Source: Heterodontus francisci | Lineage: Eukaryota | Reading direction: 5' to 3' | NCBI RefSeq assembly: GCF_036365525.1 | Contig: NC_090394.1 | Span: 37,359,243 to 37,423,242, forward strand | Length of the DNA stretch: 64,000 bases | In this document: piece by piece, positions 2,331 through 64,000 of the stretch | Numbering within the stretch: the first letter of the stretch is position 1 | Layout: the number at the start of each line of letters is the position of its first letter | Translations under genes and position numbers: made by a program | Notes under the pieces: generated by a model | Told to the model about the DNA's origin: nothing | The model's input: only the letters and a program-made list of their open reading frames with translations | The model's database searches: none

Positions 2331-2555
2331 CACTATGTTAACAGAAGACACAGATGGTGAAAAACAAGCTCAGCCAACAAGACAGACTGGCTGGATGGTG
2401 ATAGAGTTGCACTGCAACTTCGCATAGATAAGTTGCGGAACCATTAATTGCCCAAGTTCAAAGTATCCATAAGGTCTAAGACTGGGACAACACTATTTGT
2501 TGAAGGTTCCGATTTCCCAGCGGGTAGACTTGTTTTGCTGTTGCTGTAGCTCAGA

Positions 2556-3672
2556 GGCAGAGTCCTAGGCCCAACCATCTTCAGCTGCTTCATCAATGAC
2601 CTTCCTTCAATCATAAGGTCAGAAGTAGGGATGTTTGCTGATGATTGCACAATATTCAGCACCATTCACGACTCCTCAGATACTGAAGCAGAAATGCAGC
2701 AAGACCTGGACAATATTCTGGGTTAAAATCCTGGAACTCCCTTTCTAACAGCACTGTGGGTGTACCTACCCCTCATGGACTGCAGCGGTACAAGAAGGCA
2801 GCTCACCACCACCTTCTCAAGGGCAATTAGGGATGGGCAATAAATGCTAGCATAGCCAGTGATGCCCACATCCCATGAATGAATAAAAAAAAAATTTTTT
2901 AATCCAGGCTTGGGCTGATAAGTGGCAAGTAACATTCGCGTCACGCAAGTGCCAGGCAATGACCATCTCCAACAAGAGAGAATCTAACCATCTCCCCTTG
3001 ACATTCAACAGCATTACCATCGCTGAATCCCCCCACTATCAACATCCTAGGGGCTACCATTGACCAGAAACTGAACTGGAGTAGTCATATAAATAACATG
3101 GCTACAAGAGCAGGTCAGAGGCTAGGAATCCTGCAGCGAGTAACTCACCTCCTGACTCCCCAAAGCCTATCCACCATCTACAAGGCACAAGTCAGGAGTG
3201 TGATGGAATACTCTCCACTTGCCTGGTTGGGTGCAGCTCCAACAACACCCAAGAAGCTCGACACCACACAGGACAAAGCAGCCCGCTTGACTGACACCCC
3301 ATTCATCACTGACGCAAAGTAACAGCAGTGTGTACCATCTACAAGTTGCACTGCAGCAACACACCAAGGCTCCTTAAACAGTACCTTCCATACCCGCGAC
3401 CGCTACCAACTAGAAGGACAAGGGCAGCAAAGACATGGGAACACCTGCAAGTTCCCCTCCAAGTCACACACCATCCTGACTTGGAACTATATCACTGGGT
3501 CAAAATCCTGGAACTCCCTTCCCAACAGCACTGTGGGTGTACCTACCACCAATGGACTGCAGCGGTTCAAGGCAGCAGCTTACCACCACCTTCTCAAGGG
3601 CAATTCGGGATGGGCAATAAATGCTGCCCTAGCCAGCGACGTCCACATCCCATGAATGAATAAACAAAAAAT
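2556..3672 (+). mobile_element. 5'-truncated CR1-group LINE (same family as 60356-63766): RT C-terminal half plus 3' tail
   Basis: Closely matches 62577-63760. Encodes VLGPTIFSCFINDL..MFADD and IYKAQVRSVMEYSPLAW. Ends in cacatcccatgaatgaataaa plus an A-rich tail. Confidence 0.9.
2718..2901 (+). mobile_element. 3'-tail fragment of the same LINE family nested inside the RT of the host copy
   Basis: Interrupts the host sequence cctggacaatat|ccaggcttggg, which is uninterrupted at 62731-62753. Carries the family tail and an A-run. Confidence 0.85.
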
Positions 3673-11535: not shown

Positions 11536-12619
11536 AAACGCGAGTTATTTTGTTACAACTGCTTAACAGTGTTGCTCAAGTGTCCCAAGTTGCCAATAAA
11601 TGAATCACTCTGCATTTACTATTACCTCTACATTTTCTCCCCAGGTCAAGAGGCCAGGATAAGGCAATGTGGTCTTTTAATAATTGTGGTAAGTCAGAGG
11701 CAGAGAATTTTTGCAAGGTCTTTTCAAATAGAATATGAATAAGGATTGTATTATCATAAAGTAAAAAGTTTTACTAAAACTACTGATTATGTTAACTCCT
11801 TGTACAACTTGAAGATAAATTTTAAGCTTTTGATTTCAACTTTCTTTAAATTTATGGTCTCTGTGGGCTCATTTTATTTCACTTTTCTCACTCATCCTGC
11901 ATTTGATTTGCGCTTAGTCACAGACTTCTGCTCTTCTCCCTTTGCTTGACCTCTCAGTCTTCAAGTCCTTGCCATCACAAGCACTGCAGCAGTACAAGCC
12001 CTGGCATTTTGGGCTGTTCCTGGACTTGACTTTTTACTGATCCCCTTCTGAATTGTCTTACCCCACTTGGGTCAGGCCTCCCCTCACTTGGACGCCCCAT
12101 TGACTGCTTTCCCCATGCCCCTCAACCACCTTTTTCATGTTCACCATTTTCAAGCATCAAACTCAAAAACTAGCAATTGGTTTTCAAATGGATTATCACA
12201 CAATGTGGTATGCATATTGCTATAAACCATGGTTGTCCAGCATATGACCCACAGGCCAGAATCCAGCCCACCAGTCCTGTGACTGACAGCAGGCTGTCTG
12301 TGGCTTGGCTTGGATTAATGGCTCTCTCACTTAAGTGGACATCAGACGGAAGGGGTAGGCGTCTGTCTGTGATTGGTCACTTTTTGTGACTAACAGCGGC
12401 TGCACGAGCTGGGTGAGCGCTGTTTGGCGGTTCTTGGCAGGCAGTTCAGGCTGCTGCAATGGAGAGGGAGTGAGAAGCCGAAGGGAAAACAGGAAACGAG
12501 CCAGCACAAAGCCAGAGGCGCAGGCAAAGCGTACCAGCGCTGAGGGAGCACACACAGACAGAGACAGAAAGAGAGAGATAAAACAGCCCTTTAAAACAGC
12601 AACAGCCAAGCTGGGGGAG

Positions 12620-15600
12620 CAAGAGAGAGGGGAGGGGGGAGAGAGCGAGAGAGAGAGAGAGGAGGGAGGGGAGGGGGGGAGCGAGAGAGAGGGGAGGGGG
12701 GGAGCGAGAGAGAGGGGAGGGGGGGAGCGAGAGAGAGGGGAGGGGGGGAGCGAGAGAGAGGGGAGGGGGGGAGCGAGAGAGAGGGGAGGGGGGGAGCGAG
12801 AGAGAGGGGAGGGGGGGAGCGAGAGAGAGGGGAGGGGGGGAGCGAGAGAGAGGGGAGGGGGGGAGCGAGAGAGAGGGGAGGGGGGGAGCGAGAGAGAGGG
12901 GAGGGGGGGAGCGAGAGAGAGGGGAGGGGGGGAGCGAGAGAGAGGGGAGGGGGGGAGCGAGAGAGAGGGGAGGGGGGGAGCGAGAGAGAGGGGAGGGGGG
13001 GAGCGAGAGAGAGGGGAGGGGGGGAGCGAGAGAGAGGGGAGGGGGGGAGCGAGAGAGAGGGGAGGGGGGGAGCGAGAGAGAGGGGAGGGGGGGAGCGAGA
13101 GAGAGGGGAGGGGGGGAGCGAGAGAGAGGGGAGGGGGGGAGCGAGAGAGGGGGGAGGGGGGGAGCGAGAGAGGGGGGAGGGGGGGAGCGAGAGAGGGGGG
13201 AGGGGGGGAGCGAGAGAGGGGGGAGGGGGGGAGCGAGAGAGGGGGGAGGGGGGGAGCGAGAGAGGGGGGAGGGGGGGAGCGAGAGAGGGGGGAGGGGGGG
13301 AGCGAGAGAGGGGGGAGGGGGGGAGCGAGAGAGGGGGGAGGGGGGGAGCGAGAGAGGGGGGAGGGGGGGAGCGAGAGAGGGGGGAGGGGGGGAGCGAGAG
13401 AGGGGGGAGGGGGGGAGCGAGAGAGGGGGGAGGGGGGGAGCGAGAGAGGGGGGAGGGGGGGAGCGAGAGAGGGGGGAGGGGGGGAGCGAGAGAGGGGGGA
13501 GGGGGGGAGCGAGAGAGGGGGGAGGGGGGGAGCGAGAGAGGGGGGAGGGGGGGAGCGAGAGAGGGGGGAGGGGGGAGCGAGAGAGGGGGGAGGGGGGAGC
13601 GAGAGAGGGGGGAGGGGGGAGCGAGAGAGGGGGGAGGGGGGAGCGAGAGAGGGGGGAGGGGGGAGCGAGAGAGAGGGGAGGGGGGAGCGAGAGAGAGGGG
13701 AGGGGGGAGCGAGAGAGAGGGGAGGGGGGAGCGAGAGAGAGGGGAGGGGGGAGCGAGAGAGAGGGGAGGGGGGAGCGAGAGAGAGGGGAGGGGGGAGCGA
13801 GAGAGAGGGGAGGGGGGAGCGAGAGAGAGGGGAGGGGGGAGCGAGAGAGAGGGGAGGGGGGAGCGAGAGAGAGGGGAGGGGGGAGCGAGAGAGAGGGGAG
13901 GGGGGAGCGGGAGAGAGGGGAGGGGGGAGCGGGAGAGAGGGGAGGGGGGAGCGGGAGAGAGGGGAGGGGGGAGCGGGAGAGAGGGGAGGGGGGAGCGGGA
14001 GAGAGGGGAGGGGGGAGCGGGAGAGAGGGGAGGGGGGAGCGGGAGAGAGGGGAGGGGGGAGCGGGAGAGAGGGGAGGGGGGAGCGAGAGAGAGGGGAGGG
14101 GGGAGCGAGAGAGAGGGGAGGGGGGAGCGAGAGAGAGGGGAGGGGGGAGCGAGAGAGAGGGGAGGGGGGAGCGAGAGAGAGGGGAGGGGGGAGCGAGAGA
14201 GAGGGGAGGGGGGAGCGAGAGAGAGGGGAGGGGGGAGCGAGAGAGAGGGGAGGGGGGAGCGAGAGAGAGGGGAGGGGGGAGCGAGAGAGAGGGGAGGGGG
14301 GAGCGAGAGAGAGGGGAGGGGGGAGCGAGAGAGAGGGGAGGGGGGAGCGAGAGAGAGGGGAGGGGGGAGCGAGAGAGAGGGGAGGGGGGAGCGAGAGAGA
14401 GGGGAGGGGGGAGCGAGAGAGAGGGGAGGGGGGAGCGAGAGAGAGGGGAGGGGGGAGCGAGAGAGAGGGGAGGGGGGAGCGAGAGAGAGGGGAGGGGGGA
14501 GCGAGAGAGAGGGGAGGGGGGAGCGAGAGAGAGGGGAGGGGGGAGCGAGAGAGAGAGGGGAGGGGGGAGCGAGAGAGAGAGGGGAGGGGGGAGCGAGAGA
14601 GAGAGGGGAGGGGGGAGCGAGAGAGAGAGGGGAGGGGGGAGCGAGAGAGAGAGGGGAGGGGGGAGCGAGAGAGAGAGGGGAGGGGGGAGCGAGAGAGAGA
14701 GGGGAGGGGGGAGCGAGAGAGAGGGGGGAGGGGGGAGCGAGAGAGAGGGGGGAGGGGGGGAGCGAGAGAGAGAGGGAGGAGGAGGGGGAGCGAGAGAGAG
14801 AGGAGGGGGAGCGAAAGAGAGAGGAGGGGGAGCGAAAGAGAGAGGAGGGGGGAGCGAAAGAGAGGAAGGGGGAGCGAAAGAGAGGAGGGGGGAGCGAAAG
14901 AGAGGAGGGGGGAGCGAAAGAGAGGAGGGGGGAGCGAAAGAGAGGAGGGGGGAGCGAAAGAGAGGAGGGGGGAGCGAAAGAGAGGAGGGGGGAGCGAAAG
15001 AGAGGAGGGGGGAGCGAAAGAGAGGAGGGGGGAGCGAAAGAGAGGAGGGGGGAGCGAAAGAGAGGAGGGGGGAGCGAAAGAGAGGAGGGGGAGCGAAAGA
15101 GAGGAGGGGGAGCGAAAGAGAGGAGGGGGGAGCGAAAGAGAGGAGGGGGGAGCGAAAGAGAGGAGGGGGGAGCGAAAGAGAGGAGGGGGGAGCGAAAGAG
15201 AGGAGGGGGGAGCGAAAGAGAGGAGGGGGGAGCGAAAGAGAGGAGGGGGGAGCGAAAGAGAGGAGGGGGGAGCGAAAGAGAGGAGGGGGGAGCGAAAGAG
15301 AGGAGGGGGGAGCGAAAGAGAGGAGGGGGGAGCGAAAGAGAGGAGGGGGGAGCGAAAGAGAGGAGGGGGGAGCGAAAGAGAGGAGGGGGGAGCGAAAGAG
15401 AGGAGGGGGGAGCGAAAGAGAGGAGGGGGGAGCGAAAGAGAGGAGGGGGGAGCGAAAGAGAGGAGGGGGGAGCGAAAGAGAGGAGGGGGGAGCGAAAGAG
15501 AGGAGGGGGGAGCGAAAGAGAGGAGGGGGGAGCGAAAGAGAGGAGGGGGGAGCGAAAGAGAGGAGGGGGGAGCGAAAGAGAGGAGGGGGGAGCGAAAGAG

Positions 15601-16070
15601 AGGAGGGGGGAGCGAAAGAGAGGAGGGGGGAGCGAAAGAGAGGAGGGGGGAGCGAAAGAGAGGAGGGGGGAGCGAAAGAGAGGAGGGGGGAGCGAAAGAG
15701 AGGAGGGGGGAGCGAAAGAGAGGAGGGGGGAGCGAAAGAGAGGAGGGGGGAGCGAAAGAGAGGAGGGGGGAGCGAAAGAGAGGAGGAGGGAGCGAAAGAG
15801 AGGAGGAGGGAGCGAAAGAGAGGAGGAGGGAGCGAAAGAGAGGAGGAGGGAGCGAAAGAGAGGAGGAGGGAGCGAAAGAGAGGAGGAGGGAGCGAAAGAG
15901 AGGAGGAGGGAGCGAAAGAGAGGAGGGGGGAGCGAAAGAGAGGAGGAGGAGGGAGCGAGAGAGAGAGAAGGAGGAGGGGGAGCGAGAGAGAGAGGAGGAG
16001 GAGGGGGGAGCGAGAGAGAGAGGAGGAAGGGGGAGCGAGAGAGAGAGGAGTAGGGAGCGAGAGAGAGACC
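12620..16070 (+). repeat. Polypurine minisatellite: 22-24 bp unit GAGCGAGAGAGAGGGGAGGGGGG grading into a 20-bp unit AGCGAAAGAGAGGAGGGGGG
   Basis: Directly visible tandem units; almost no T on the + strand. Confidence 0.97.
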
Positions 16071-16149
16071 CACCGGAGGGGTGGGGAAGAGAGACAGACG
16101 GGGGTGGGGAGGGCGGGGAGAGACAGACACACACAGAGAGGGGGGAGGG

Positions 16150-17992
16150 AAGAGAGACACACACGGGGGGGGGGGGGGGGGAGACACACACACGGGGGTG
16201 GGGGGGGGGGGAGACACACACACGGGGGTGGGGGGGGGGGAGACACACACACGGGGGGGGGGGGGGGGGGAGACACACACACGGGGGGGGGGGGGGGGGG
16301 GGAGACACACACACGGGGGGGGGGAGACACACACACGGGGGGGGGGGGGGGGGGGAGACACACACACGGGGGTGGGGGGGGGGGGGGGGAGACACACACA
16401 CGGGGGGGGGGGAGACACACACACGGGGGGGGGGGGGAGACACACACACGGGGGGGGGAGGGAGACACACACACGGGGGGGGGAGGAGGGAGACACACAC
16501 ACGGGGGGGGAGGAGACACACACACGGGGGGGGGGGGGGGAGACACACACACGGGGGGGGGGGGAGACACACACACGGGGGGGGGGGGGAGACACACACA
16601 CGGGGGGGGGGGGGAGACACACACACGGGGGGGGGGGGAGACACACACACGGGGGGGGGGGAGACACACACACGGGGGGGGGAGACACACACACGGGGGG
16701 GGGAGACACACACACGGGGGGGGGAGACACACACACGGGGGGGGGAGACACACACACGGGGGGGGGAGACACACACACGGGGGGGGGAGACACACACACG
16801 GGGGGGGAGACACACACACGGGGGGGGAGACACACACACGGGGGGGGAGACACACACACGGGGGGGGAGACACACACACGGGGGGGGAGACACACACACG
16901 GGGGGGGGAGACACACACACGGGGGGGGGGAGACACACACACGGGGGGGGGGAGACACACACACGGGGGGGGAGACACACACACGGGGGGGGAGACACAC
17001 ACACGGGGGGGGAGACACACACACGGGGGGGGAGACACACACACGGGGGGGGAGACACACACACGGGGGGGGAGACACACACACGGGGGGGGAGACACAC
17101 ACACGGGGGGGGAGACACACACACGGGGGGGGGAGACACACACACGGGGGGGGAGACACACACACGGGGGGGGAGACACACACACGGGGGGGGAGACACA
17201 CACACGGGGGGGGAGACACACACACGGGGGGGGAGACACACACACGGGGGGGGAGACACACACACGGGGGGGGAGACACACACACGGGGGGGGAGACACA
17301 CACACGGGGGGGAGACACACACACGGGGGGGAGACACACACACGGGGGGGAGACACACACACGGGGGGGGAGACACACACACGGGGGGGGAGACACACAC
17401 ACGGGGGGGGAGACACACACACGGGGGGGGAGACACACACACGGGGGGGGAGACACACACACGGGGGGGGAGACACACACACGGGGGGGGAGACACACAC
17501 ACGGGGGGGGAGACACACACACGGGGGGGGAGACACACACACGCGGGGGGGGAGACACACACACGCGGGGGGGGGAGACACACACACGCGGGGGGGGGAG
17601 ACACACACACGCGGGGGGGGGAGACACACACACGCGGGGGGGGGAGACACACACACGCGGGGGGGGGAGACACACACACGCGGGGGGGGGAGACACACAC
17701 ACGCGGGGGGGGGAGACACACACACGCGGGGGGGGGAGACACACACACGCGGGGGGGGGAGACACACACACGCGGGGGGGGGAGACACACACACGCGGGG
17801 GGGGGAGACACACACACGCGGGGGGGGGAGACACACACACGCGGGGGGGGGAGACACACACACGCGGGGGGGGGAGACACACACACGCGGGGGGGGGAGA
17901 CACACACACGCGGGGGGGGGAGACACACACACGCGGGGGGGGGAGACACACACACGCGGGGGGGGGAGACACACACACGCGGGGGGGGGAGA
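16150..17992 (+). repeat. Minisatellite GAGACACACACAC(GC)G(n), about 19-25 bp units
   Basis: Directly visible tandem units with variable G-runs. Confidence 0.97.
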
Positions 17993-18005
17993 NNNNNNNN
18001 NNNNN
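17993..18005. other. Assembly gap (13 N)
   Basis: 13 consecutive N. Confidence 1.
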
Positions 18006-21000
18006 TGGGGGGGGAGCGAGGAGAGAGGGGAGGGAGGGGAGCGAGAGAGAGGGGAGGGGGGAGGAGGAGAGAGGGGAGGGGGGGAGCGAGAGAGAGGGGA
18101 GGGGGGAGCGAGAGAGAGGGGAGGGGGAGCGAGAGAGAGAGGGGAGGGGGGAGCGAGAGAGAGGGGAGGGGGGAGCGAGAGAGAGAGGGGAGGGGGGAGC
18201 GAGAGAGAGAGGGGAGGGGGGAGCGAGAGAGAGGGGAGGGGGGAGCGAGAGAGAGGGGAGGGGGGAGCGAGAGAGAGAGGGGAGGGGGGAGCGAGAGAGA
18301 GAGGGGAGGGGGGAGCGAGAGAGAGAGGGGAGGAGGGGGGGGAGCGAGAGAGAGAGGGGAGGGGGGAGCGAGAGAGAGAGGGGAGGGGGGAGCGAGAGAG
18401 AGAGGGGAGGGGGGAGCGAGAGAGAGAGGGGAGGGGGAGCGAGAGAGAGGGAGGGGGAGCGAGAGAGAGGGAGGGGGGAGCGAAGAGAGAGGAGGGGGGA
18501 GCGAAAGAGAGAGGAGGGGGGAGCGAAAGAGAGGAGGGGGGAGCGAAAGAGAGGAGGGGGGAGCGAAAGAGAGGAGGGGGGAGCGAAAGAGAGGAGGGGG
18601 GAGCGAAAGAGAGGAGGGGGGAGCGAAAGAGAGGAGGGGGAGCGAAAGAGAGGAGGGGGGAGCGAAAGAGAGGAGGGGGGAGCGAAAGAGAGGAGGGGGG
18701 AGCGAAAGAGAGGAGGGGGGAGCGAAAGAGAGGAGGGGGGAGCGAAAGAGAGGAGGGGGGAGCGAAAGAGAGGAGGGGGGAGCGAAAGAGAGGAGGGGGG
18801 AGCGAAAGAGAGGAGGGGGGAGCGAAAGAGAGGAGGGGGGAGCGAAAGAGAGGAGGGGGGAGCGAAAGAGAGGAGGGGGGAGCGAAAGAGAGGAGGGGGG
18901 AGCGAAAGAGAGGAGGGGGGAGCGAAAGAGAGGAGGGGGGAGCGAAAGAGAGGAGGGGGGAGCGAAAGAGAGGAGGGGGGAGCGAAAGAGAGGAGGGGGG
19001 AGCGAAAGAGAGGAGGGGGGAGCGAAAGAGAGGAGGGGGGAGCGAAAGAGAGGAGGGGGGAGCGAAAGAGAGGAGGGGGGAGCGAAAAGAGAGGAGGGGG
19101 GGGAGCGAAAGAGAGGAGGGGGGAGCGAAAGAGAGGAGGGGGGAGCGAAAGAGAGGAGGGGGGAGCGAAAGAGAGGAGGGGGGAGCGAAAGAGAGGAGGG
19201 GGGAGCGAAAGAGAGGAGGGGGGAGCGAAAGAGAGGAGGGGGGGAGAGAGGAGCGAAAGAGAGGAGGGGGGAGCGAAAGAGAGGAGGGGGGAGCGAAAGA
19301 GAGGAGGGGGGAGCGAAAGAGAGGAGGGGGGAGCGAAAGAGAGGAGGGGGGAGCGAAAGAGAGGAGGGGGGAGCGAAAGAGAGGAGGGGGGAGCGAAAGA
19401 GAGGAGGGGGGAGCGAAAGAGAGGAGGGGGAGCGAAAGAGAGGAGGAGGGAGCGAAAGAGAGGAGGAGGGAGCGAAAGAGAGGAGGAGGGAGCGAAAGAG
19501 AGGAGGAGGGAGCGAAAGAGAGGAGGAGGGAGCGAAAGAGAGGAGGAGGGAGCGAAAGAGAGGAGGGGGGAGCGAAAGAGAGGAGGAGGAGGGAGCGAGA
19601 GAGAGAGAAGGAGGAGGGGGAGCGAGAGAGAGAGGAGGAGGAGGGGGGAGCGAGAGAGAGAGGAGGAAGGGGGAGCGAGAGAGAGAGGAGTAGGGAGCGA
19701 GAGAGAGACCCACCGGAGGGGTGGGGAAGAGAGACAGACGGGGGTGGGGAGGGCGGGGAGAGACAGACACACACAGAGAGGGGGGAGGGAAGAGAGACAC
19801 ACACGGGGGGGGGGGGGGGGGAGACACACACACGGGGGTGGGGGGGGGGGGAGACACACACACGGGGGTGGGGGGGGGGGAGACACACACACGGGGGGGG
19901 GGGGGGGGGAGACACACACACGGGGGGGGGGGGGGGGGGGGAGACACACACACGGGGGGGGGGAGACACACACACGGGGGGGGGGGGGGGGGGGGAGACA
20001 CACACACGGGGGTGGGGGGGGGGGGGGGAGACACACACACGGGGGGGGGGGGAGACACACACACGGGGGGGGGGGGGAGACACACACACGGGGGGGGGGA
20101 GGGAGACACACACACGGGGGGGGGAGGAGGGAGACACACACACGGGGGGGGAGGAGACACACACACGGGGGGGGGGGGGGGGAGACACACACACGGGGGG
20201 GGGGGGAGACACACACACGGGGGGGGGGGGGAGACACACACACGGGGGGGGGGGGGAGACACACACACGGGGGGGGGGGGAGACACACACACGGGGGGGG
20301 GGGGGAGACACACACACGGGGGGGGGAGACACACACACGGGGGGGGGAGACACACACACGGGGGGGGGAGACACACACACGGGGGGGGGAGACACACACA
20401 CGGGGGGGGGAGACACACACACGGGGGGGGAGACACACACACGGGGGGGAGACACACACACGGGGGGGGAGACACACACACGGGGGGGGAGACACACACA
20501 CGGGGGGGGAGACACACACACGGGGGGGGAGACACACACACGGGGGGGGGAGACACACACACGGGGGGGGGGAGACACACACACGGGGGGGGGGGGAGAC
20601 ACACACACGGGGGGGGAGACACACACACGGGGGGGGAGACACACACACGGGGGGGGAGACACACACACGGGGGGGGAGACACACACACGGGGGGGGAGAC
20701 ACACACACGGGGGGGGGAGACACACACACGGGGGGGGAGACACACACACGGGGGGGGAGACACACACACGGGGGGGGAGACACACACACGGGGGGGGAGA
20801 CACACACACGGGGGGGGAGACACACACACGGGGGGGGAGAGACACACACACGGGGGGGGAGACACACACACGGGGGGGGAGACACACACACGGGGGGGGG
20901 AGACACACACACGGGGGGGGGAGACACACACACGGGGGGGGAGACACACACACGGGGGGGAGACACACACACGGGGGGGGAGACACACACACGGGGGGGA

Positions 21001-23340
21001 GACACACACACGGGGGGGAGACACACACACGGGGGGGAGACACACACACGGGGGGGGAGACACACACACGGGGGGGGAGACACACACACGGGGGGGAGAC
21101 ACACACACGGGGGGGGAGACACACACACGGGGGGGGAGACACACACACGGGGGGGGAGACACACACACGGGGGGGGAGACACACACACGGGGGGGGAGAC
21201 ACACACACGCGGGGGGGAGACACACACACGCGGGGGGGGAGACACACACACGCGGGGGGGGGAGACACACACACGCGGGGGGGGGAGACACACACACGCG
21301 GGGGGGGGAGACACACACACGCGGGGGGGGGAGACACACACACGCGGGGGGGGGAGACACACACACGCGGGGGGGGGAGACACACACACGCGGGGGGGGG
21401 AGACACACACACGCGGGGGGGGGAGACACACACACGCGGGGGGGGGAGACACACACACGCGGGGGGGGGAGACACACACACGCGGGGGGGGGAGACACAC
21501 ACACGCGGGGGGGGGAGACACACACACGCGGGGGGGGGAGACACACACACGCGGGGGGGGGAGACACACACACGCGGGGGGGGGAGACACACACACGCGG
21601 GGGGGGGAGACACACACACGCGGGGGGGGGAGACACACACACGCGGGGGGGGGAGACACACACACGCGGGGGGGGGAGACACACACACGCGGGGGGGGGA
21701 GACACACACACGCGGGGGGGGGAGACACACACACGCGGGGGGGGGAGACACACACACGCGGGGGGGGGAGACACACACACGCGGGGGGGGGAGACACACA
21801 CACGCGGGGGAGGGGGGAGACACACACGCGGGGGGGGGAGAGACACACACGCGGGGGGGGGAGAGACACACACACGCGGGGGGGGAGAGACACACACACG
21901 CGGGGGGTGGAGACACACACACGCGGGGGGTGGAGACACACACACGCCGGGGGGGGGGGAGACACACACACGCCGGGGTGGGGGGGGAGACACACACACG
22001 CGGGGTGGGGGGGGAGACACACACACGGGGGGGGGGGAGAGACACACACACGGGGGTGGGGGGGGGAGACACACACACGCGGGGGGGGGAGACACACACA
22101 CGCGGGGGGGGGAGACACACACACGCGGGGGGGGGAGACACACACACGCGGGGGGGGGAGACACACACACGCGGGGGGGGGGAGACACACACACGCGGGG
22201 GAGGGGGGAGACACACACGCGGGGGGGGGAGAGACACACACACGCGGGGGGGGGAGAGACACACACACGCGGGGGGGGAGAGACACACACACGCGGGGGG
22301 TGGAGAGACACACACACGCGGGGGGTGGAGACACACACACGCCGGGGGGTGGAGACACACACACGCCGGGGTGGGGGGGGAGACACACACACGCCGGGGT
22401 GGGGGGGGAGACACACACACGCGGGGGGGGGGGAGAGACACACACACGGGGGTGGGGGGGGGAGACACACAAGGGGGTGGGGGGGGGAGACACACAAGGG
22501 GGTGGGGGGGAGACACACAAGGGGGTGGGGGGGAGACACACAAGGGGGTGGGGGGGGAGACACACAAGGGGGTGGGGGGGAGACACACAAGGGGGTGGGG
22601 GGGGAGACACAAGGGGGTGGGGGGGGGGGGAGACACAAGGGGGTGGGGGGGGAGACACAAGGGGGTGGGGGGGGAGACACAAGGGGGTGGGGGGGGAGAC
22701 ACAAGGGGGTGGGGGGGGGACACAAGGGGGTGGGGGGGGGACACAAGGGGGTGGGGGGGGGACACAAGGGGGTGGGGGGGGGACACAAGGGGGTGGGGGG
22801 GGGACACAAGGGGGTGGGGGGGGGGACACAAGGGGGTGGGGGGGGACACAAGGGGTGGGGGGGGGACACAAGGGGGTGGGGGGGGGGGAGACACAAGGGG
22901 GTGGGGGGGGGGAGACACAAGGGGGTGGGGGGGGGGAGACACAAGGGGGTGGGGGGGGGAGACACACACACGGGGGGGGGACACACACACACGGGGGGGG
23001 AGACACACTCACCGGGGGGGGGGAGACACACACACACGGGGGGGGGGGGGGGGGGGGAGAGCCACACACAGAAAGGGGGGTGGGGGTGGGAGCCACACAC
23101 AGAAAGGGGGGTGGGGGTGGGAGCCACACACAGAAGGGGGGGGGGGGGGATGCGTGCAAGACCCGGGAGGGAGGGGGGAGGCGTGCGAGACCCGGGAGGG
23201 AGGGGGGGAAGGTGCAAGACCCAGGAGGGAGGGGGGAGTATTAGACCCCAGGGGTGGGGGGGTAAGAGCAGAGAGAAAGAGAGATGGACACAAAGAGGAG
23301 AGAGAGGGAGGCACAGAGAGGGGTGAGAGGGAGAGAGAAA
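18006..23340 (+). repeat. Second pass of the same array series (GA-rich 22-24-mer, 20-mer, GAGACACACACAC-Gn), ending in GACACAAGGGGGTGGGGGG units
   Basis: The spacer gacccaccggaggggtggggaagagagacagacg occurs at both about 16067 and about 19707, a 3640-bp offset. Confidence 0.95.
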
Positions 23341-23341
23341 G

Positions 23342-23461
23342 AGATCAAGATCACTTCAGACAGATGGACAACTATCCGGAATGCACTGCATTACTATATC
23401 AAATGTGCAGGCAGACATTAACTACTTGTGCAAGCAAAAACAATGCCAGGTACGTCACTAA
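23342..23461 (+). pseudogene. hAT (Buster/Charlie, GTF2IRD2-like) transposase C-terminal relic
   Basis: Translates RSRSLQTDGQLSGMHCITISNVQADINYLCKQKQCQVRH*, resembling the RSxLTDxHL...DIxxL..KQCQVSH* ending of this family. Confidence 0.75.
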
Positions 23462-23484
23462 ATCAGTGTTCAACATAGTGACAA

Positions 23485-23826
23485 GGGGCGGCACAGTGGC
23501 GCAGTGTTTAGCACTGTAGCCTCACAGCTCCTGCGACCCGGGTTCGATTCTGGGTACTTCCTGTATGGAGTTTGCAAGTTCTCCCTGTGACCGCGTGGGT
23601 TTCCGCCGGGTGCTCCGGTTTCCTCCCACAGCCAAAGACTTGCAGGTCGATAGGTAAATTGGCCATTGTAAATTGCCCCTAGTGTAGGTAGGTGGTAGGA
23701 GAATTGTGGGGATGTGGTAGGGAATATGGGATTAATGTAGGATTAGTATAAATGGGTGGTTGATAGTCGGCACAGACTCGGTGGGCCAAGGGTCTGTTTC
23801 AGTGTTGTATATCTCTATGACTCTAT
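23485..23826 (+). mobile_element. Full-length HE1-like tRNA SINE inserted in the hAT element
   Basis: A box TGGCGCAGTG, B box GGTTCGATTC, V-domain and ATGACTCT tail. Absent from the homologous hAT copy near 40000. Confidence 0.92.
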
Positions 23827-53203: not shown

Positions 53204-53967
53204 CACTGAGGATAAATCCAAAGTCCAGAGGAGCAGCATAATACAGACAGCTACTCACACTGGCACGCTTCATTGATTCACTCAAGTCCACAGTTTCAAG
53301 ATTAAAACATGAGTGGACAAAATCAGAAGTTCATTTTGCACAACATACCACCAAATTTCAACCAGTTTGTCATTAAAATAAAGTTGACATGAATAAAGTC
53401 ATAGCATTTAGTATATTAAGTATCTTCAAAAGTTGATTTTAAGAGGATTCCAATCAGAGTGGATATTGAAAAGATTTTGCAGTAAGATAGGTTTTTCACT
53501 CATTTAATTAAGTTCCACTCCACACCTAAAATGGTGTTACTGGAGGCAAGTGTTCGAGTTAACTATCTTAAAATGTGCAAAATACATAGAATTTACAGCA
53601 CAGAAACAGGTCTTTCAGCCCAACTGGTCTATGCCAGTGCTTATGCTCCACATAAGCCTCTTCCCATTCCAATTACTTCTCGCCCTGCTCCAGGACCCTT
53701 CTATTCCCTTGTCCCTCATGCCTCCTGTTAAATGCTTCAACCACTCAATCATGAAGAAATTTCTCAAATTCTTTATTTGATCTGTTAGTGAATAATCTAT
53801 ATTTATGCTCTCTTGTTCTGGATTCACTAAGAAGTGGAAACAATTTTTCCACATTCAACCTAACAAAGTCTTGATTATTTTAAAGACCTCTAGTAGTTCT
53901 AATCTTAGTCTTGTTTTTTTTTTCCAGAAAAATAGCTCCTACCTACTCAATCCTTTTTCTTATCCAT

Positions 53968-54915
53968 AAATCATGGGATGTGGGCATCACTGGCAAAGCC
54001 AGTATTTATTGCTCATCAAGGTGGTCTTGGTGAGCCATCTTCTTGAACTGCTGCAGTCCATGTGGTGAAAGTGCTACCACAGTGCTGTTAGGTAGGGAGT
54101 TCCAGGATTTTGACTCAGTGACAATGAAGGAATAGTGATACATTTCCAAGGCAGGATAATGTGAGACTTTGAGGGGAGCTTGCAGGTGATGGCTTCCACA
54201 TGTGCCTGCTGCCCTCACCCTTCTAGGCAGTAGAGATTGTGGGCTTGGGGAGTTGTTGTCAAAGCAGCCTTGGCGAGTTGCTGCAGTGCATCTTGCAGAT
54301 AACACACACTGAAGCCACAGTGCATCACTGATGATGGGGTGCCAATCAAGTGAGTTGCTTTTTCCTAGACGGTGTCAAGCTTCTTGAGTGTTGATGGAGC
54401 TGCACTCATCCAGACAAATGCAGAGTATTTCATTATACTCCTGATTTGTGACTTGTAGATGGTGGAAAGGCTTTGGGGAGTCACAAGGTGAGTAACTTGC
54501 CACAGAATAACCAGCCTCTGACCTGCTCTTGTAGCCTCATAAGTTAAGTTTCTGTCAATGGTGAAGCCCAGGATAATGGGTGATTGATGATGATAATGCC
54601 ATTGGATATCATGGAGAGGTGGTTAAGATTCCCCATTGTTGGTGATGGTCACGGACATGCTTGGCTCCGCTGTCAGAGGATGGGGATGTTCATGGAGCCT
54701 CCTCCCCGATTAGTTGTTTAATTGTCCACCACCGTTTATGACCAAATGTGGCAGGATTGAAGAGCTTTGATCTGAACCTTTGGTTGTGGGATCGCTTAGC
54801 TCTGTCTATTGCTTGCTACACCTGCTGTTCAGCATGCATGCAATCTTGTGTTGGAGCTTCACCAGGTTGGCACCTCAATTTTTACGTATACCTGGCATTG
54901 CTGCTGGCATTCTTA
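53968..54915 (-). mobile_element. Internally deleted older copy of the 60356-63766 LINE family
   Basis: Tail tcatgggatgtgggcatcactggc; segments match 62810-63750 and 61580-61830 in reverse complement. Confidence 0.85.
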
Positions 54916-60172: not shown

Positions 60173-60355
60173 TTATGAAACCAAGAATTCATGAGTTATT
60201 GGGCATGATGCTAATGTTTCATGTACTGACACATCTTGTATGCCATACATACATAAGCAGAAAACATACACATACCCATGTAATTTCTTCTATTTTAGGT
60301 GGCTGGGGACTGAAAGTTACATCTACCAGAGCACCTGAACAATCTTAACATTTAT

Positions 60356-60446
60356 GGGGAGGCGCTGGCGTAGTGGTATTGTCACTGGACTAGTAACCCA
60401 GAGACCCAGGGTATTGCTCTGGGGACATGGGTTCAAATCCCACCAC
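60356..60446 (+). promoter_or_regulatory. tRNA-derived internal Pol III promoter (A and B boxes), tRNA-Thr(AGU)-like
   Basis: A box TGGCGTAGTGG at 60366-60376, anticodon-like loop CTAGTAA, B box GGTTCAAATCC at 60430-60440. Confidence 0.75.
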
Positions 60447-63400
60447 AGCAGAAGGTGGAACCATCTGGTTCACTAATGTCCTTTAGGGAAGGAAACCTGC
60501 TGTCCTTACCTGGTCTGGCCTATATGTGACACCAGACCCACAGCAATGTGGTTGACTCTTACATGCCCTCTGAAATGGCCTAGCAAGCCACTCAATTGTA
60601 TCTAACCACTACGAAGTCAATAAAAAGGAATGAAACCGGACGAACCACCCGACATCGACCTCGGCACTGGAAACGACAATGGCAAACCCAGCCCTGTCGA
60701 CCCTGCAAAGTCCTCCTTACTAACATCTGGGGGCTTGTGCTAAAGTTGGGAGAGCTGTCCCACAGACTAGTCAAGCAACAGCCTGACATAGTCATACTCA
60801 CGGAATCATACCTTACAGACAATGTCCCAGACACTGCCATCACCATCCCCGGGTATGTCCTGTCCCACCGGCAGGACAGACCCACCAGAGGTGGTGGCAC
60901 AGTGGTATACAGTAGGGACTGAGTTGCCCTGGGAGTCCTCAACATCAACTCTGGACCCCATGAAGTCTAATGGCATCAGATCAAACACGGACAAGGAAAC
61001 CTCCTGCTGATTACCACCTACCGCCCTCCCTCAGCTGATGAGTCAGTACCCCTCCATGTTGAACAGCACTTGCAGGAAGCACTAAGGATGGCAAGGGCAC
61101 AAAATGTACTCTGGGTGGGGGACTTCAATGTCCATCACCAAGAGTGGCTCGGTCGCACCACTACTGACCGAGCTGGCCAAGTCCTAAAGGACATATCTGC
61201 TGGACTGCGGCAGGTGGTGAGGGAACCAATAAGAGGGGAAAAAATATTTGACCTCGTCCTCACCAATCTGCCTGCCGCAGATGCATCTATCCATGACAGT
61301 ATTGGTAGGAGTGACCACCGCACAGTCCTTGTGGAGACGAAGTCCCGCCTTCACATTGAGGATACCCTCCATCGTGTTGTGTGGCACTACCACCGTGCTA
61401 AATGGGATTATTTCGAACAGATCTAGCAATGCAAAACTGGGCATCCTTGAGGCGTTGTAGGCCATCAGCAGCAGCAGAATTGTATTCAACCACAATCTGT
61501 AACCTCATGGCCCGGCAAATCCCCCACCGTACCATTACCATCTAGCCAGAAGACCAATCCTGGTTCAATGAAGAGTGCAGGAGGGCATGCCAGGAGCAGC
61601 ACCAGGCATACCTCAAAATGAGGTGTCAACCTGGTGAAGCTGTAACACAGTACTATCTGCGTACCAAACTGCGTAAGCAGCATGCGATAGACAGAGCTAA
61701 GCGATCCCATAACCAACGGATCAGATCTAAGCTGTGCAGTCCTGCCACATCCAGCCGTGAATGGTGGTGGACAATTAAACAACTAACTGGAGGAGCTGGC
61801 TCCACAAACATCCCCACCCTCAATGATGGGGGAGCCCAGCACATCAGTGCGAAAGATAAGGCTGAAGCATTTGCAACAATCTTCAGCCAGAAGTGCCGAG
61901 TTGATGATCCACCTCGGCCTCCTCCTAAAGTCCCCAGCATCACAGATGCCAGACTCCAGCCAATTCAATTCACTCTGCGTGATATCAAGAAACGACTGAA
62001 GGCACTGGATTCTGCAAAAGCTATGGGCCCTGACAATGTTCCGGCAATAGTACTGAAGACCTGTGCTCCAGCACTAGCCGCACCCCTAGCCAAGCTGTTC
62101 CAGTACATCTACCCTGCAATGTGGAAAATTGCCCAGGTATGTCCTGTACACAAAAAGCAGGACGTCCAACCCGGCCAATTACCGCTCCATCAGTCTACTC
62201 TCAATCATCAGTAAAGTGATGGAAGGTGTCATCAACAGTGCCATCAAGTGGCACTTGCTTAGCAATAACCTGCTCAGTGACGCTCAGTTTGGATTCCACC
62301 AGGGCCACTCAGCTTCTGACCTCATTACAGCCTTGGTTCAAACATGGACAAAAGAGCTGAACTCGAGAAGTGAGGGGAGAGTGACTGCCCCAAACATCAA
62401 GGCAGCATTTGACCGAGTATGGCATCAAGGAGCCCTAGCAAAACTGAGGTCAATGGGAATCAGGGGAAAAACCCTCCACCGGCTGGAGTCATGCCTAGCG
62501 CAAAGGAAGATGGTTGTGGTTGTTGGTGGTCAATCATCTGAGCTCCAGGACATCACTGCAGGAGTTCCTCAGGGTAGTGTCCTAGGCCCAACCATCTTCA
62601 GCTGCTTCATCAATGACCTTCCTTCAATCATAAGGTCAGAAGTGGGGATGTTCGCTGATGATTGCACATTGTACAGCACCATTCGTGACTCCTCAGATAC
62701 TGAAGCAGTCCGTGTAGAAATGCAGCAAGACCTGGACAATATCCAGGCTTGGGCTGATAAGTGCCAAGTAACATTCGCACCACACAAGTGCCGGGCAAAG
62801 ACCATCTCCAACAAAAGAGAATCTAACCATCTCCCCTTGACATTCAATGGCATTACCATCGCTGAATCCCCCACTATCAACATCCTAGGGGCTACCATTG
62901 ACCAGAAACTGAACTGGAGTAGCCAAATAAATACTGTGGCTACAAGAGCAGGTCAGAGGCTAGGAATCCTGAGGCGAGTAACTCAACTCCCGACTCCCCA
63001 AAGCCTGTCCACCATCTACAAGGCACAAGTCAGGCGTGTGACGGAATACTCTCCACTTGCCTGGATTGGTGCAGCTCCAACACTCAAGAAGCTCGACGCC
63101 ATCCAGGACAAAACAGCCTGCTTGATTGGCACCCCATCTGCAAACATTCACTCCCTCCACCACTGACGCACAGTGGCAGCAGTGTGTACCATCTACAAGA
63201 TGCACTGCAGCAACGCACCAAGGCTCCTTAGACAGCACCTTCCAAACCCGTGACCTCTATCAACTAGAAGGACAAGGGCAGTAAATGCATGGGAACACCA
63301 CCACTTTCAAGTTCCCTGCCAAGTCACACACCATCCTGACTTGGAACTATATCGCCATTCCTTCACTGTCGCTGGGTCAAAATCCTGGAACACCCTTCCT

Positions 63401-63450
63401 AACAGCACTGTGGGTATACCTACCCCAAATGGACTGCAGCGGTTCAAGAA

Positions 63451-63664
63451 TAGTGGGTATCTGGAATGAGCTGCCAGAGGAGGTGGTGGAGGCAGGAACA
63501 GTAGCAACATTTAAGAGGCATCTGAACAGGTACTTGAATGAGCCAGGCATAGAGGGATATGGAATTAATGCAGGCATGTGGAATTAATATAGATAGGCAT
63601 TATGGTCGGCATGGACACGGTGGGCCGAAGGGCCTGTTTCTATGCTGCACGACTCTATGACTCT
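63451..63664 (+). mobile_element. HER1/CR1 3' fragment inserted into the LINE's 3' region
   Basis: 5-bp direct repeat AAGAA at 63446-63450 and 63665-63669. Tail gggccgaagggcctgtttc..gactctatgactct is shared with the HE1-like SINEs. Confidence 0.88.
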
Positions 63665-64000
63665 AAGAAGGCAGCTCCCCACCACCTTCTCAAGGGCAAT
63701 TAGGGATAGGCAATAAATGCTGGCCTGGCCAGTGACGCCCACATCCCATGAATGAATCAAAAAAAATTATTTTTTCATCTGAAAGTTGTACTGTCAATGG
63801 CATACTGCATTGTATTCAACTCAAAAATACCATCTAAACAATTTTTCTTCAGAAATGAGTCATGGAAATTAGAAGCAAATTAATTTATAAAGTATATGCT
63901 ATTTTTGTTAACATCTTTATGCCCTCTAACACTTGAATGAAACCAAATACTTGATTACTTCTGCTGAAAAGATGAAAGAGTAAACATTTAGTGGTCCAAA

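What the first reader, a model, noticed from the sequence alone, without database searches (positions are those of the whole stretch)
60356..63766. Candidate Pol III-driven autonomous LINE: tRNA/SINE head fused to an APE-RT ORF lacking TTTT terminators
Seen: the element starts with a tRNA-like head (A and B boxes), continues through about 150 bp of SINE-body-like sequence and runs directly into one APE-RT frame. Reading by eye I found no TTTT on the sense strand across the 3.4 kb, against more than a dozen AAAA runs. The bodies of the other two copies (2556-3672 and 53968-54915) also lack sense TTTT apart from one nested-insertion junction, whereas the RTE and CR1 copies here contain several. 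Established: vertebrate Pol III terminates at T4 or longer runs, and LINEs normally use Pol II promoters. Inference: this family may be a protein-coding retrotransposon transcribed by Pol III, in effect an autonomous SINE. I cannot tell whether this has already been described.
Basis: partly seen in the sequence, partly recalled or inferred. Interest (0 to 1): 0.75.

Follow-up and report, generated by a model that had tools for sequence, protein, structure and literature searches.

The report
Shark LINE with a tRNA promoter
A very common 3.3-kb shark jumping gene that encodes its own copying enzyme begins with a tRNA-type promoter and almost lacks runs of T on its coding strand, so it is likely transcribed by RNA polymerase III, an enzyme thought to make only short non-coding RNAs.

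Summary
Confirmed. 60356-63766 is a decayed copy of an abundant 3.3-kb single-ORF LINE (APE + RT). The tRNA-type head (A and B boxes) is part of the unit: 19 of 29 copies picked by ORF alone carry it in register, and an older subfamily has it too. The family matches the elasmobranch Zenon consensuses in a 2026 supplement (five species, all starting with this head); that paper never mentions tRNA or Pol III. Absence of TTTT alone is weak, but TTT across codon boundaries is 0 of 71 (RTE 9 of 58, CR1 10 of 65; 64 outside LINE ORFs undepleted). New here: the ORF has no AUG before the endonuclease domain; the partner SINE equals the LINE minus its ORF, and its subfamilies group with LINE subfamilies; the head/body does not match printed SacSINE1/Deu sequences, as some earlier notes of this scan supposed. 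Best reading: an autonomous LINE likely transcribed by Pol III (0.6). No RNA data test the polymerase. The scan noted this family before in other genomes.

The parts
60356..60460 (+). tRNA-derived head with A box (60366-60376) and B box (60430-60440); anticodon position reads AGT; extra hairpin in the variable-arm position
   Evidence: flanks of 43 copies diverge exactly at its first base
60461..60583 (+). Conserved 5' body shared with the partner SINE; ends in a two-codon ATG GCC TAG (60575-60583). A 79-bp linker present in other copies is missing just before it in this copy
60584..63703 (+). Single APE-RT reading frame (975 codons in family columns; broken in this copy), Arg-rich N-terminal stretch, no in-frame ATG until codon 210, stop TAG at 63701-63703
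60722..61327 (+). Apurinic-like endonuclease domain (PF03372 below cut-off, PF14529 above)
62171..62893 (+). Reverse transcriptase domain PF00078, E=2e-31
63451..63665 (+). Later nested insert, 3' fragment of another repeat (CR1-like by recall), not part of the family
   Evidence: other copies join 63450 directly to 63666
63704..63766 (+). 3' UTR and short A tail, shared with the partner SINE
2550..3672 (+). Two 5'-truncated 3' fragments of the same family, one behind the other
53954..54910 (-). Older, internally deleted 3' fragment of the family (74-77% identical)

Best explanation
This is a copy of the shark-and-ray Zenon LINE, whose full-length unit starts with a tRNA-derived A-box/B-box head and is likely transcribed by RNA polymerase III across all 3.3 kb. 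Shown: head, body, one APE-RT frame and an A tail travel as one unit; the coding strand avoids TTT and T-rich words. Inferred: Pol III starts at the first G, about 10 nt before the A box; selection removed terminator-like T runs so that full-length RNA is made; transcription would end at the first T run in the flank. The uncapped RNA would be translated from a non-AUG start upstream of the endonuclease motif (likely with help from the conserved 5' body; the exact mechanism is the weakest step). The protein would copy the RNA by target-primed reverse transcription from the 3' tail and would also mobilise the 0.4-kb SINE that equals the LINE without its ORF.
For: Unit: 19 of 29 copies chosen by ORF start alone have the head about 440 bp upstream; the other 10 end in unrelated flank or carry a diverged older 5' end. 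43 of 60 fetched loci run head to tail; A box in 36 and B box in 42 of 43 (one mismatch allowed), upstream columns 30-47% agreement against 53-95% inside the head. 33 copies: 3298 columns, one frame with no stop column over 975 codons, 3.7% mean divergence, 0 T4, 6 T3. T3 in the ORF 4 vs 12.8 under synonymous shuffles (0 of 2000 as low); A, C and G runs normal. TTT made across codon boundaries 0 of 71 vs RTE 9 of 58 and CR1 10 of 65 from the same genome (Fisher P=5e-4 and 4e-4); the RTE has almost the same T content (0.206 vs 0.196). 64 related LINE ORFs from metagenomes: obs/exp median 1.02, lowest 0.42, all with T4 runs. Synonymous T at TTT-making sites 4 of 53 vs 226 of 690 elsewhere, P=4e-5. 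Interrupted T words: 4-of-5 T windows 1 vs 10.9; C-rich pyrimidine tracts not depleted, which fits degenerate Pol III terminators (PMC3141230, abstract and section 13) better than splice-site avoidance. Older subfamily (19 copies): head present, 0 T4, ORF differences mostly at third positions 105 vs 42 and 29. Seven published Zenon consensuses from five elasmobranchs start with this head and show no T4 in the 400 nt visible; hagfish and coelacanth Zenons do not have it and hold T4 runs (read by eye). Nine upstream ATGs and two AATAAA in the first 350 nt suit a capped, scanned Pol II mRNA poorly.
Against: No transcript start, cap or polymerase data. T4=0 by itself is not significant under codon-aware nulls (P 0.09-0.15). 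Plain TT across codon boundaries is also low in the RTE control (3 vs 10.6; family 5 vs 16), so only the TTT-level signal is family-specific, and only two in-genome control families were tested. Old and young subfamilies differ by just 6.5%, so they are not independent. The A and B boxes are not better kept than the rest of the head between subfamilies (2 and 1 majority differences, partly at CpG sites; head 15.5% overall), and the stingray consensus B box lacks one base. How an uncapped RNA without AUG is translated is unexplained; no covariation-supported IRES-like fold was found (1 compensatory pair). Pol III is regarded as poorly processive (PMC10886601, passages).
Confidence: 0.6

Rival explanations
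1. The LINE is a Pol II element. The tRNA/SINE-type 5' module is a captured 5' UTR that acts as an internal Pol II promoter or RNA signal, and T runs are avoided for another reason (U-rich RNA sensing or decay, export).
For: All LINEs with own promoters are described as Pol II (PMC10886601, PMC5786205, passages). TT is low in the RTE too. Boxes not specially conserved.
Against: Does not explain why TTT and interrupted T words are lost only in the headed family and not in RTE, CR1 or 64 related ORFs, nor the fixed start 10 nt before the A box, nor the missing AUG.
Confidence: 0.2
2. Split labour: Pol III makes the RNA that is copied, but the protein comes from separate capped Pol II transcripts (host read-through or spliced into an exon that supplies the AUG), acting on the RNA through the 3' tail.
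For: Accounts for head, T purge and missing AUG without new translation chemistry; the same tail mobilises thousands of SINE copies in trans.
Against: The ORF stayed under purifying selection through successive source elements, which is easiest if each RNA makes its own protein; no conserved splice acceptor was evident before the endonuclease motif (read by eye).
Confidence: 0.18
3. Chance juxtaposition of a SINE and a truncated LINE in this copy.
For: A SINE with the same head is abundant.
Against: 1660 exact matches to the 36-nt body-ORF junction, same junction in two subfamilies and five other species.
Confidence: 0.01

Closest known systems
Elasmobranch Zenon LINEs (CarCar_, RhiTyp_, HypSab_, ScyCan_Zenon-1, SquAca_Zenon-1/2/3; Stuart et al. 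2026, PMC13343379, Suppl. Table 2)
   Same: First 400 nt match this family's head, linker, body and ORF start (by eye); length 3244-3314 nt for the five Zenon-1 rows vs 3298 columns; no ORF1; A tail.
   Different: Nothing found to separate them. The paper's main text has 0 hits for 'tRNA', 'polymerase III' and 'start codon' and its supplement 0 for 'tRNA': head, T avoidance, missing AUG and partner SINE are not described there.
tRNA-derived SINEs (SINE2) and bipartite LINE-derived SINEs (Kojima 2018, PMC5786205)
   Same: tRNA head with A/B boxes, LINE tail; the partner SINE is the 5' and 3' ends of the LINE.
   Different: There the head is added to a deleted non-coding LINE and SINEs are said not to encode protein; only RTE and Vingi were found as donors. 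Here the head sits on the coding, autonomous element itself.
SacSINE1 / Deu-SINEs with L2-2_CM (PMC5499810, PMC4824008)
   Same: Shark tRNA-headed SINE with a conserved body and a LINE partner.
   Different: The SacSINE1 head (positions 2-78) and the Deu-containing EbuSINE2 and SINE2-2_CM sequences printed do not resemble this head or body by eye (one 10-letter word in common).
R2 retrotransposons (recalled; only the title of a cited paper seen)
   Same: Protein-coding non-LTR element whose RNA is not a normal capped Pol II mRNA and is thought to be translated unconventionally.
   Different: R2 is cut from an rRNA co-transcript by a ribozyme and has no promoter of its own; different clade and endonuclease.
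TRIMp3 elements Cassandra, Helenus, Ajax (PMC10886601)
   Same: Retrotransposons other than SINEs that carry a Pol III promoter.
   Different: Non-coding, LTR-type, at most 1.3 kb.

Membership tests
Zenon LINE (CR1 group) | Single ORF with APE and RT, no ORF1 | tested here: met
   only 307 nt lie upstream of the frame
Zenon LINE (CR1 group) | Poly-A tail (unique to Zenon in the CR1 group per PMC13343379) | tested here: met
   short A tail in full-length copies
Zenon LINE (CR1 group) | Sequence match to published elasmobranch Zenon consensuses | tested here: met
   first 400 nt of seven rows, compared by eye and by motif search; the rest of each cell is cut
Zenon LINE (CR1 group) | RT groups with reference Zenon proteins in a tree | not testable with these tools
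   no named reference proteins; tree of 36 unnamed relatives leaves it on a long branch, nearest 52%
tRNA-derived SINE (SINE2) | tRNA-derived head with A and B boxes | tested here: met
tRNA-derived SINE (SINE2) | Short and non-coding | tested here: not met
   3.3 kb with a 975-codon frame under purifying selection
tRNA-derived SINE (SINE2) | Transcribed by Pol III | not testable with these tools
   only contigs available
Pol III type-2 template | Fixed start just upstream of the A box; no internal T4 | tested here: met
SacSINE1 / Deu-SINE | SacSINE1-type head | tested here: not met
   by eye against positions 2-78 printed
SacSINE1 / Deu-SINE | Deu domain in the body | tested here: not met
   by eye against EbuSINE2 and SINE2-2_CM; body motifs absent from two SINE supplements (one file not searchable); very remote homology not excluded

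The most novel reading that the evidence does not exclude
A self-sufficient, protein-coding retrotransposon transcribed by RNA polymerase III: a 3.3-kb uncapped RNA, kept free of T-run terminators since before sharks and rays split, translated without an AUG, and repeatedly shedding its own SINE by deleting the ORF.
Probability: 0.45. Interest if true: 0.92.

Novelty: new variant of a known kind. Interest (0 to 1): 0.78.

Why it matters
The textbook split is LINE = Pol II and coding, SINE = Pol III and non-coding, with Pol III limited to short RNAs. A natural 3.3-kb coding Pol III unit would break that split, give a natural model for long Pol III transcription and for cap- and AUG-independent translation, and show a direct route by which a SINE arises from its LINE by one deletion. 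It is testable with a plasmid and standard inhibitors. Even if Pol II is used, a LINE that has carried a SINE head across shark and ray evolution appears undescribed.

Tried and rejected
SacSINE1/Deu identity: my first recalled label; dropped after comparison with printed sequences. Start by -1 frameshift from the out-of-frame ATG at column 354: that ATG reads ATA in the older subfamily and no slippery heptamer was evident. Start at ATG column 287: absent in the older subfamily. Read-through of ATG GCC TAG CAA: attractive, because it is kept in both subfamilies at 135 nt from the endonuclease motif, in frame (36 of 43 young, 7 of 17 old copies, 6 old unmatched), and in frame in three published consensuses, but out of frame in the RhiTyp and SquAca-1 rows, the latter with a TAA (by eye); left open, not favoured. 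IRES-like fold: z=-2.0 for one copy, one compensatory pair: no support. RNA: 24 runs listed, 4 laid, all contigs, kind mostly guessed; they cover the element and show the SINE joint but cannot give start, strand or level. Older-subfamily search by the 53968 copy returned mostly young copies, as did (5 of 40 fetched, all 91-94% to a young copy). Viral contigs: no relative. No tRNA head or body match in 80 metagenome loci. Target-site duplications: none of 4 nt or more in 32 of 34 copies. Literature: ten searches found no report of a Pol III or tRNA-headed autonomous LINE; Repbase, Dfam and subscription journals were not searchable; Nishihara 2006 and two R2/ribozyme papers were not held; the supplement of PMC5499810 and one file of PMC4824008 could not be read and may bear on the SINE's name.

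Full report
Observation. The window lies in a 6.0-Gb genome. 60356-63766 holds an A box and a B box, a body, remnants of one APE-RT frame (Pfam PF14529 and PF00078 above cut-off, PF03372 below) and an A8 tail. The sense strand has 0 T4 and 15 A4 runs; T3 runs are 9 against 23.5 expected. The copy is decayed: 3.5% from the family columns, five in-frame stops, several deletions including 79 bp after the head, and a 215-bp insert near the 3' end.

The head belongs to the family. A search with the ORF start alone scored 40 of 1970 candidates and gave 30 loci; of the 29 other than this copy, 19 carry the head about 440 bp upstream, and none shows a different common 5' end. Of 60 loci fetched from two searches, 43 run from head to tail (24 of the 60 came from a query that included the head). 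Their flanks are unrelated up to the first base of the head. ARAGORN reads 11 of 43 heads as tRNA at default score, 32 relaxed, nearly all Thr(AGT), against 0 and 2 of 860 shuffles; Rfam does not reach its tRNA model. The exact 36-nt body-ORF junction occurs 1660 times; 7 of 33 aligned copies have it exactly, so several thousand copies reach the body. An older subfamily (19 copies, 72-87% to a young copy) has its own variant of the same head.

One frame, no AUG. In 33 copies of near-full length (10 of 43 left out for large indels or inserts) one frame has no stop column over 975 codons. Its first in-frame ATG is codon 210, past the endonuclease's first motif at about codon 47, whereas most full-length relatives (37-45% identical) have Met shortly before that motif (starts set by gene callers). 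Between subfamilies, differences fall mostly on third positions, so the frame was under selection. The start is unresolved; see Tried and rejected.

T avoidance is real at the TTT level. T4=0 is unremarkable under codon-aware nulls (P 0.09-0.15), but T3 is 4 vs 12.8 (0 of 2000 shuffles), and all four are Phe TTT codons: no xTT codon is followed by T (0 of 44) and no TTx codon is preceded by T (0 of 27). The same test on 25 RTE and 25 CR1 copies gives 9 of 58 and 10 of 65. 64 of 80 metagenome loci had ORFs long enough to test; their ratio has median 1.02 and minimum 0.42. Interrupted T words are also missing on the sense strand and common on the antisense, while pyrimidine tracts are normal. 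Against over-reading: plain TT at codon boundaries is equally low in the RTE, and the two subfamilies share ancestry.

Partner SINE. A 0.4-kb element consists of head, linker and body joined to the last 75 nt of the LINE, starting four codons before the stop; 3461 exact junction matches, with two junction types. In a tree of 42 5' modules (15 of 57 dropped for short coverage) seven young SINEs group with 13 young LINEs at 99/96, and SINE monophyly is rejected (AU P=3e-6; groups named before the tree, test run after it; old copies have long branches). So SINEs arose more than once from the LINE, or the two swap 5' ends. Which came first cannot be told.

Comparison with what is known. PMC13343379 (abstract, passages on Zenon/ORF1, and supplement rows cut at 400 characters) reports Zenon elements in five elasmobranchs, coelacanth and hagfish, without ORF1 and with a poly-A tail, not yet in repeat databases for elasmobranchs. 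All seven elasmobranch rows begin with this head; the hagfish and coelacanth rows do not. A Heptranchias perlo protein is 82% identical. The head was therefore probably gained once in the elasmobranch lineage. The whale shark preprint (10.1101/443036, passages) only names CR1-Zenon. PMC5786205 (passages and supplement passages) and PMC10886601 (passages) state that LINEs use Pol II and SINEs are non-coding and short. PMC5499810 (parts 1-3 of 6) and PMC4824008 (passages) describe SacSINE1/Deu-SINEs, which this is not by the sequences I could see. PMC3141230 (abstract, section 13) shows that degenerate T-rich words terminate human Pol III. PMC11481361 (passages) names Zenon as a SINE partner in bivalves. 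The R2 comparison is recalled. Species names behind the row prefixes are my expansion.

Verdict. The anatomy is shown and general; Pol III transcription is the best-fitting but untested inference (0.6). Earlier notes of this scan describe the same family in other genomes; they are not independent support. As a sequence it is a known Zenon lineage; as a tRNA-headed, TTT-avoiding, AUG-less coding element with its own SINE it was not found in the searches listed.

Noticed in passing
L062 and L116 (G000 C1, about 136.6 and 189.2 Mb): Two full-length copies sit at what looks like the same position inside the same other repeat (matching 5' and 3' flanks): segmental duplication, a composite unit, or a preferred target.
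   Followed up: no
3' ends of 43 full-length copies: 13 of 43 have a T4 run right at the A tail. Probably A-tail decay, but a retained Pol III terminator followed by A addition is not excluded.
   Followed up: partly
window 12300-23500: About 11 kb of low-complexity GA- and CA-rich tandem sequence with an N gap and repeated blocks; long spurious ORFs; may be partly an assembly artefact.
   Followed up: no
   Followed up: partly
P0040: A Heptranchias protein annotated as aldo-keto reductase 1B1-like contains a piece 85% identical to this ORF: exonised LINE or annotation error.
   Followed up: no
L322, L324: Copies of the partner SINE inserted inside older copies of its own LINE.
   Followed up: no
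window 60201-60244: Weak Rfam snoR1 match (E=0.024, far below gathering score); likely chance.
   Followed up: no
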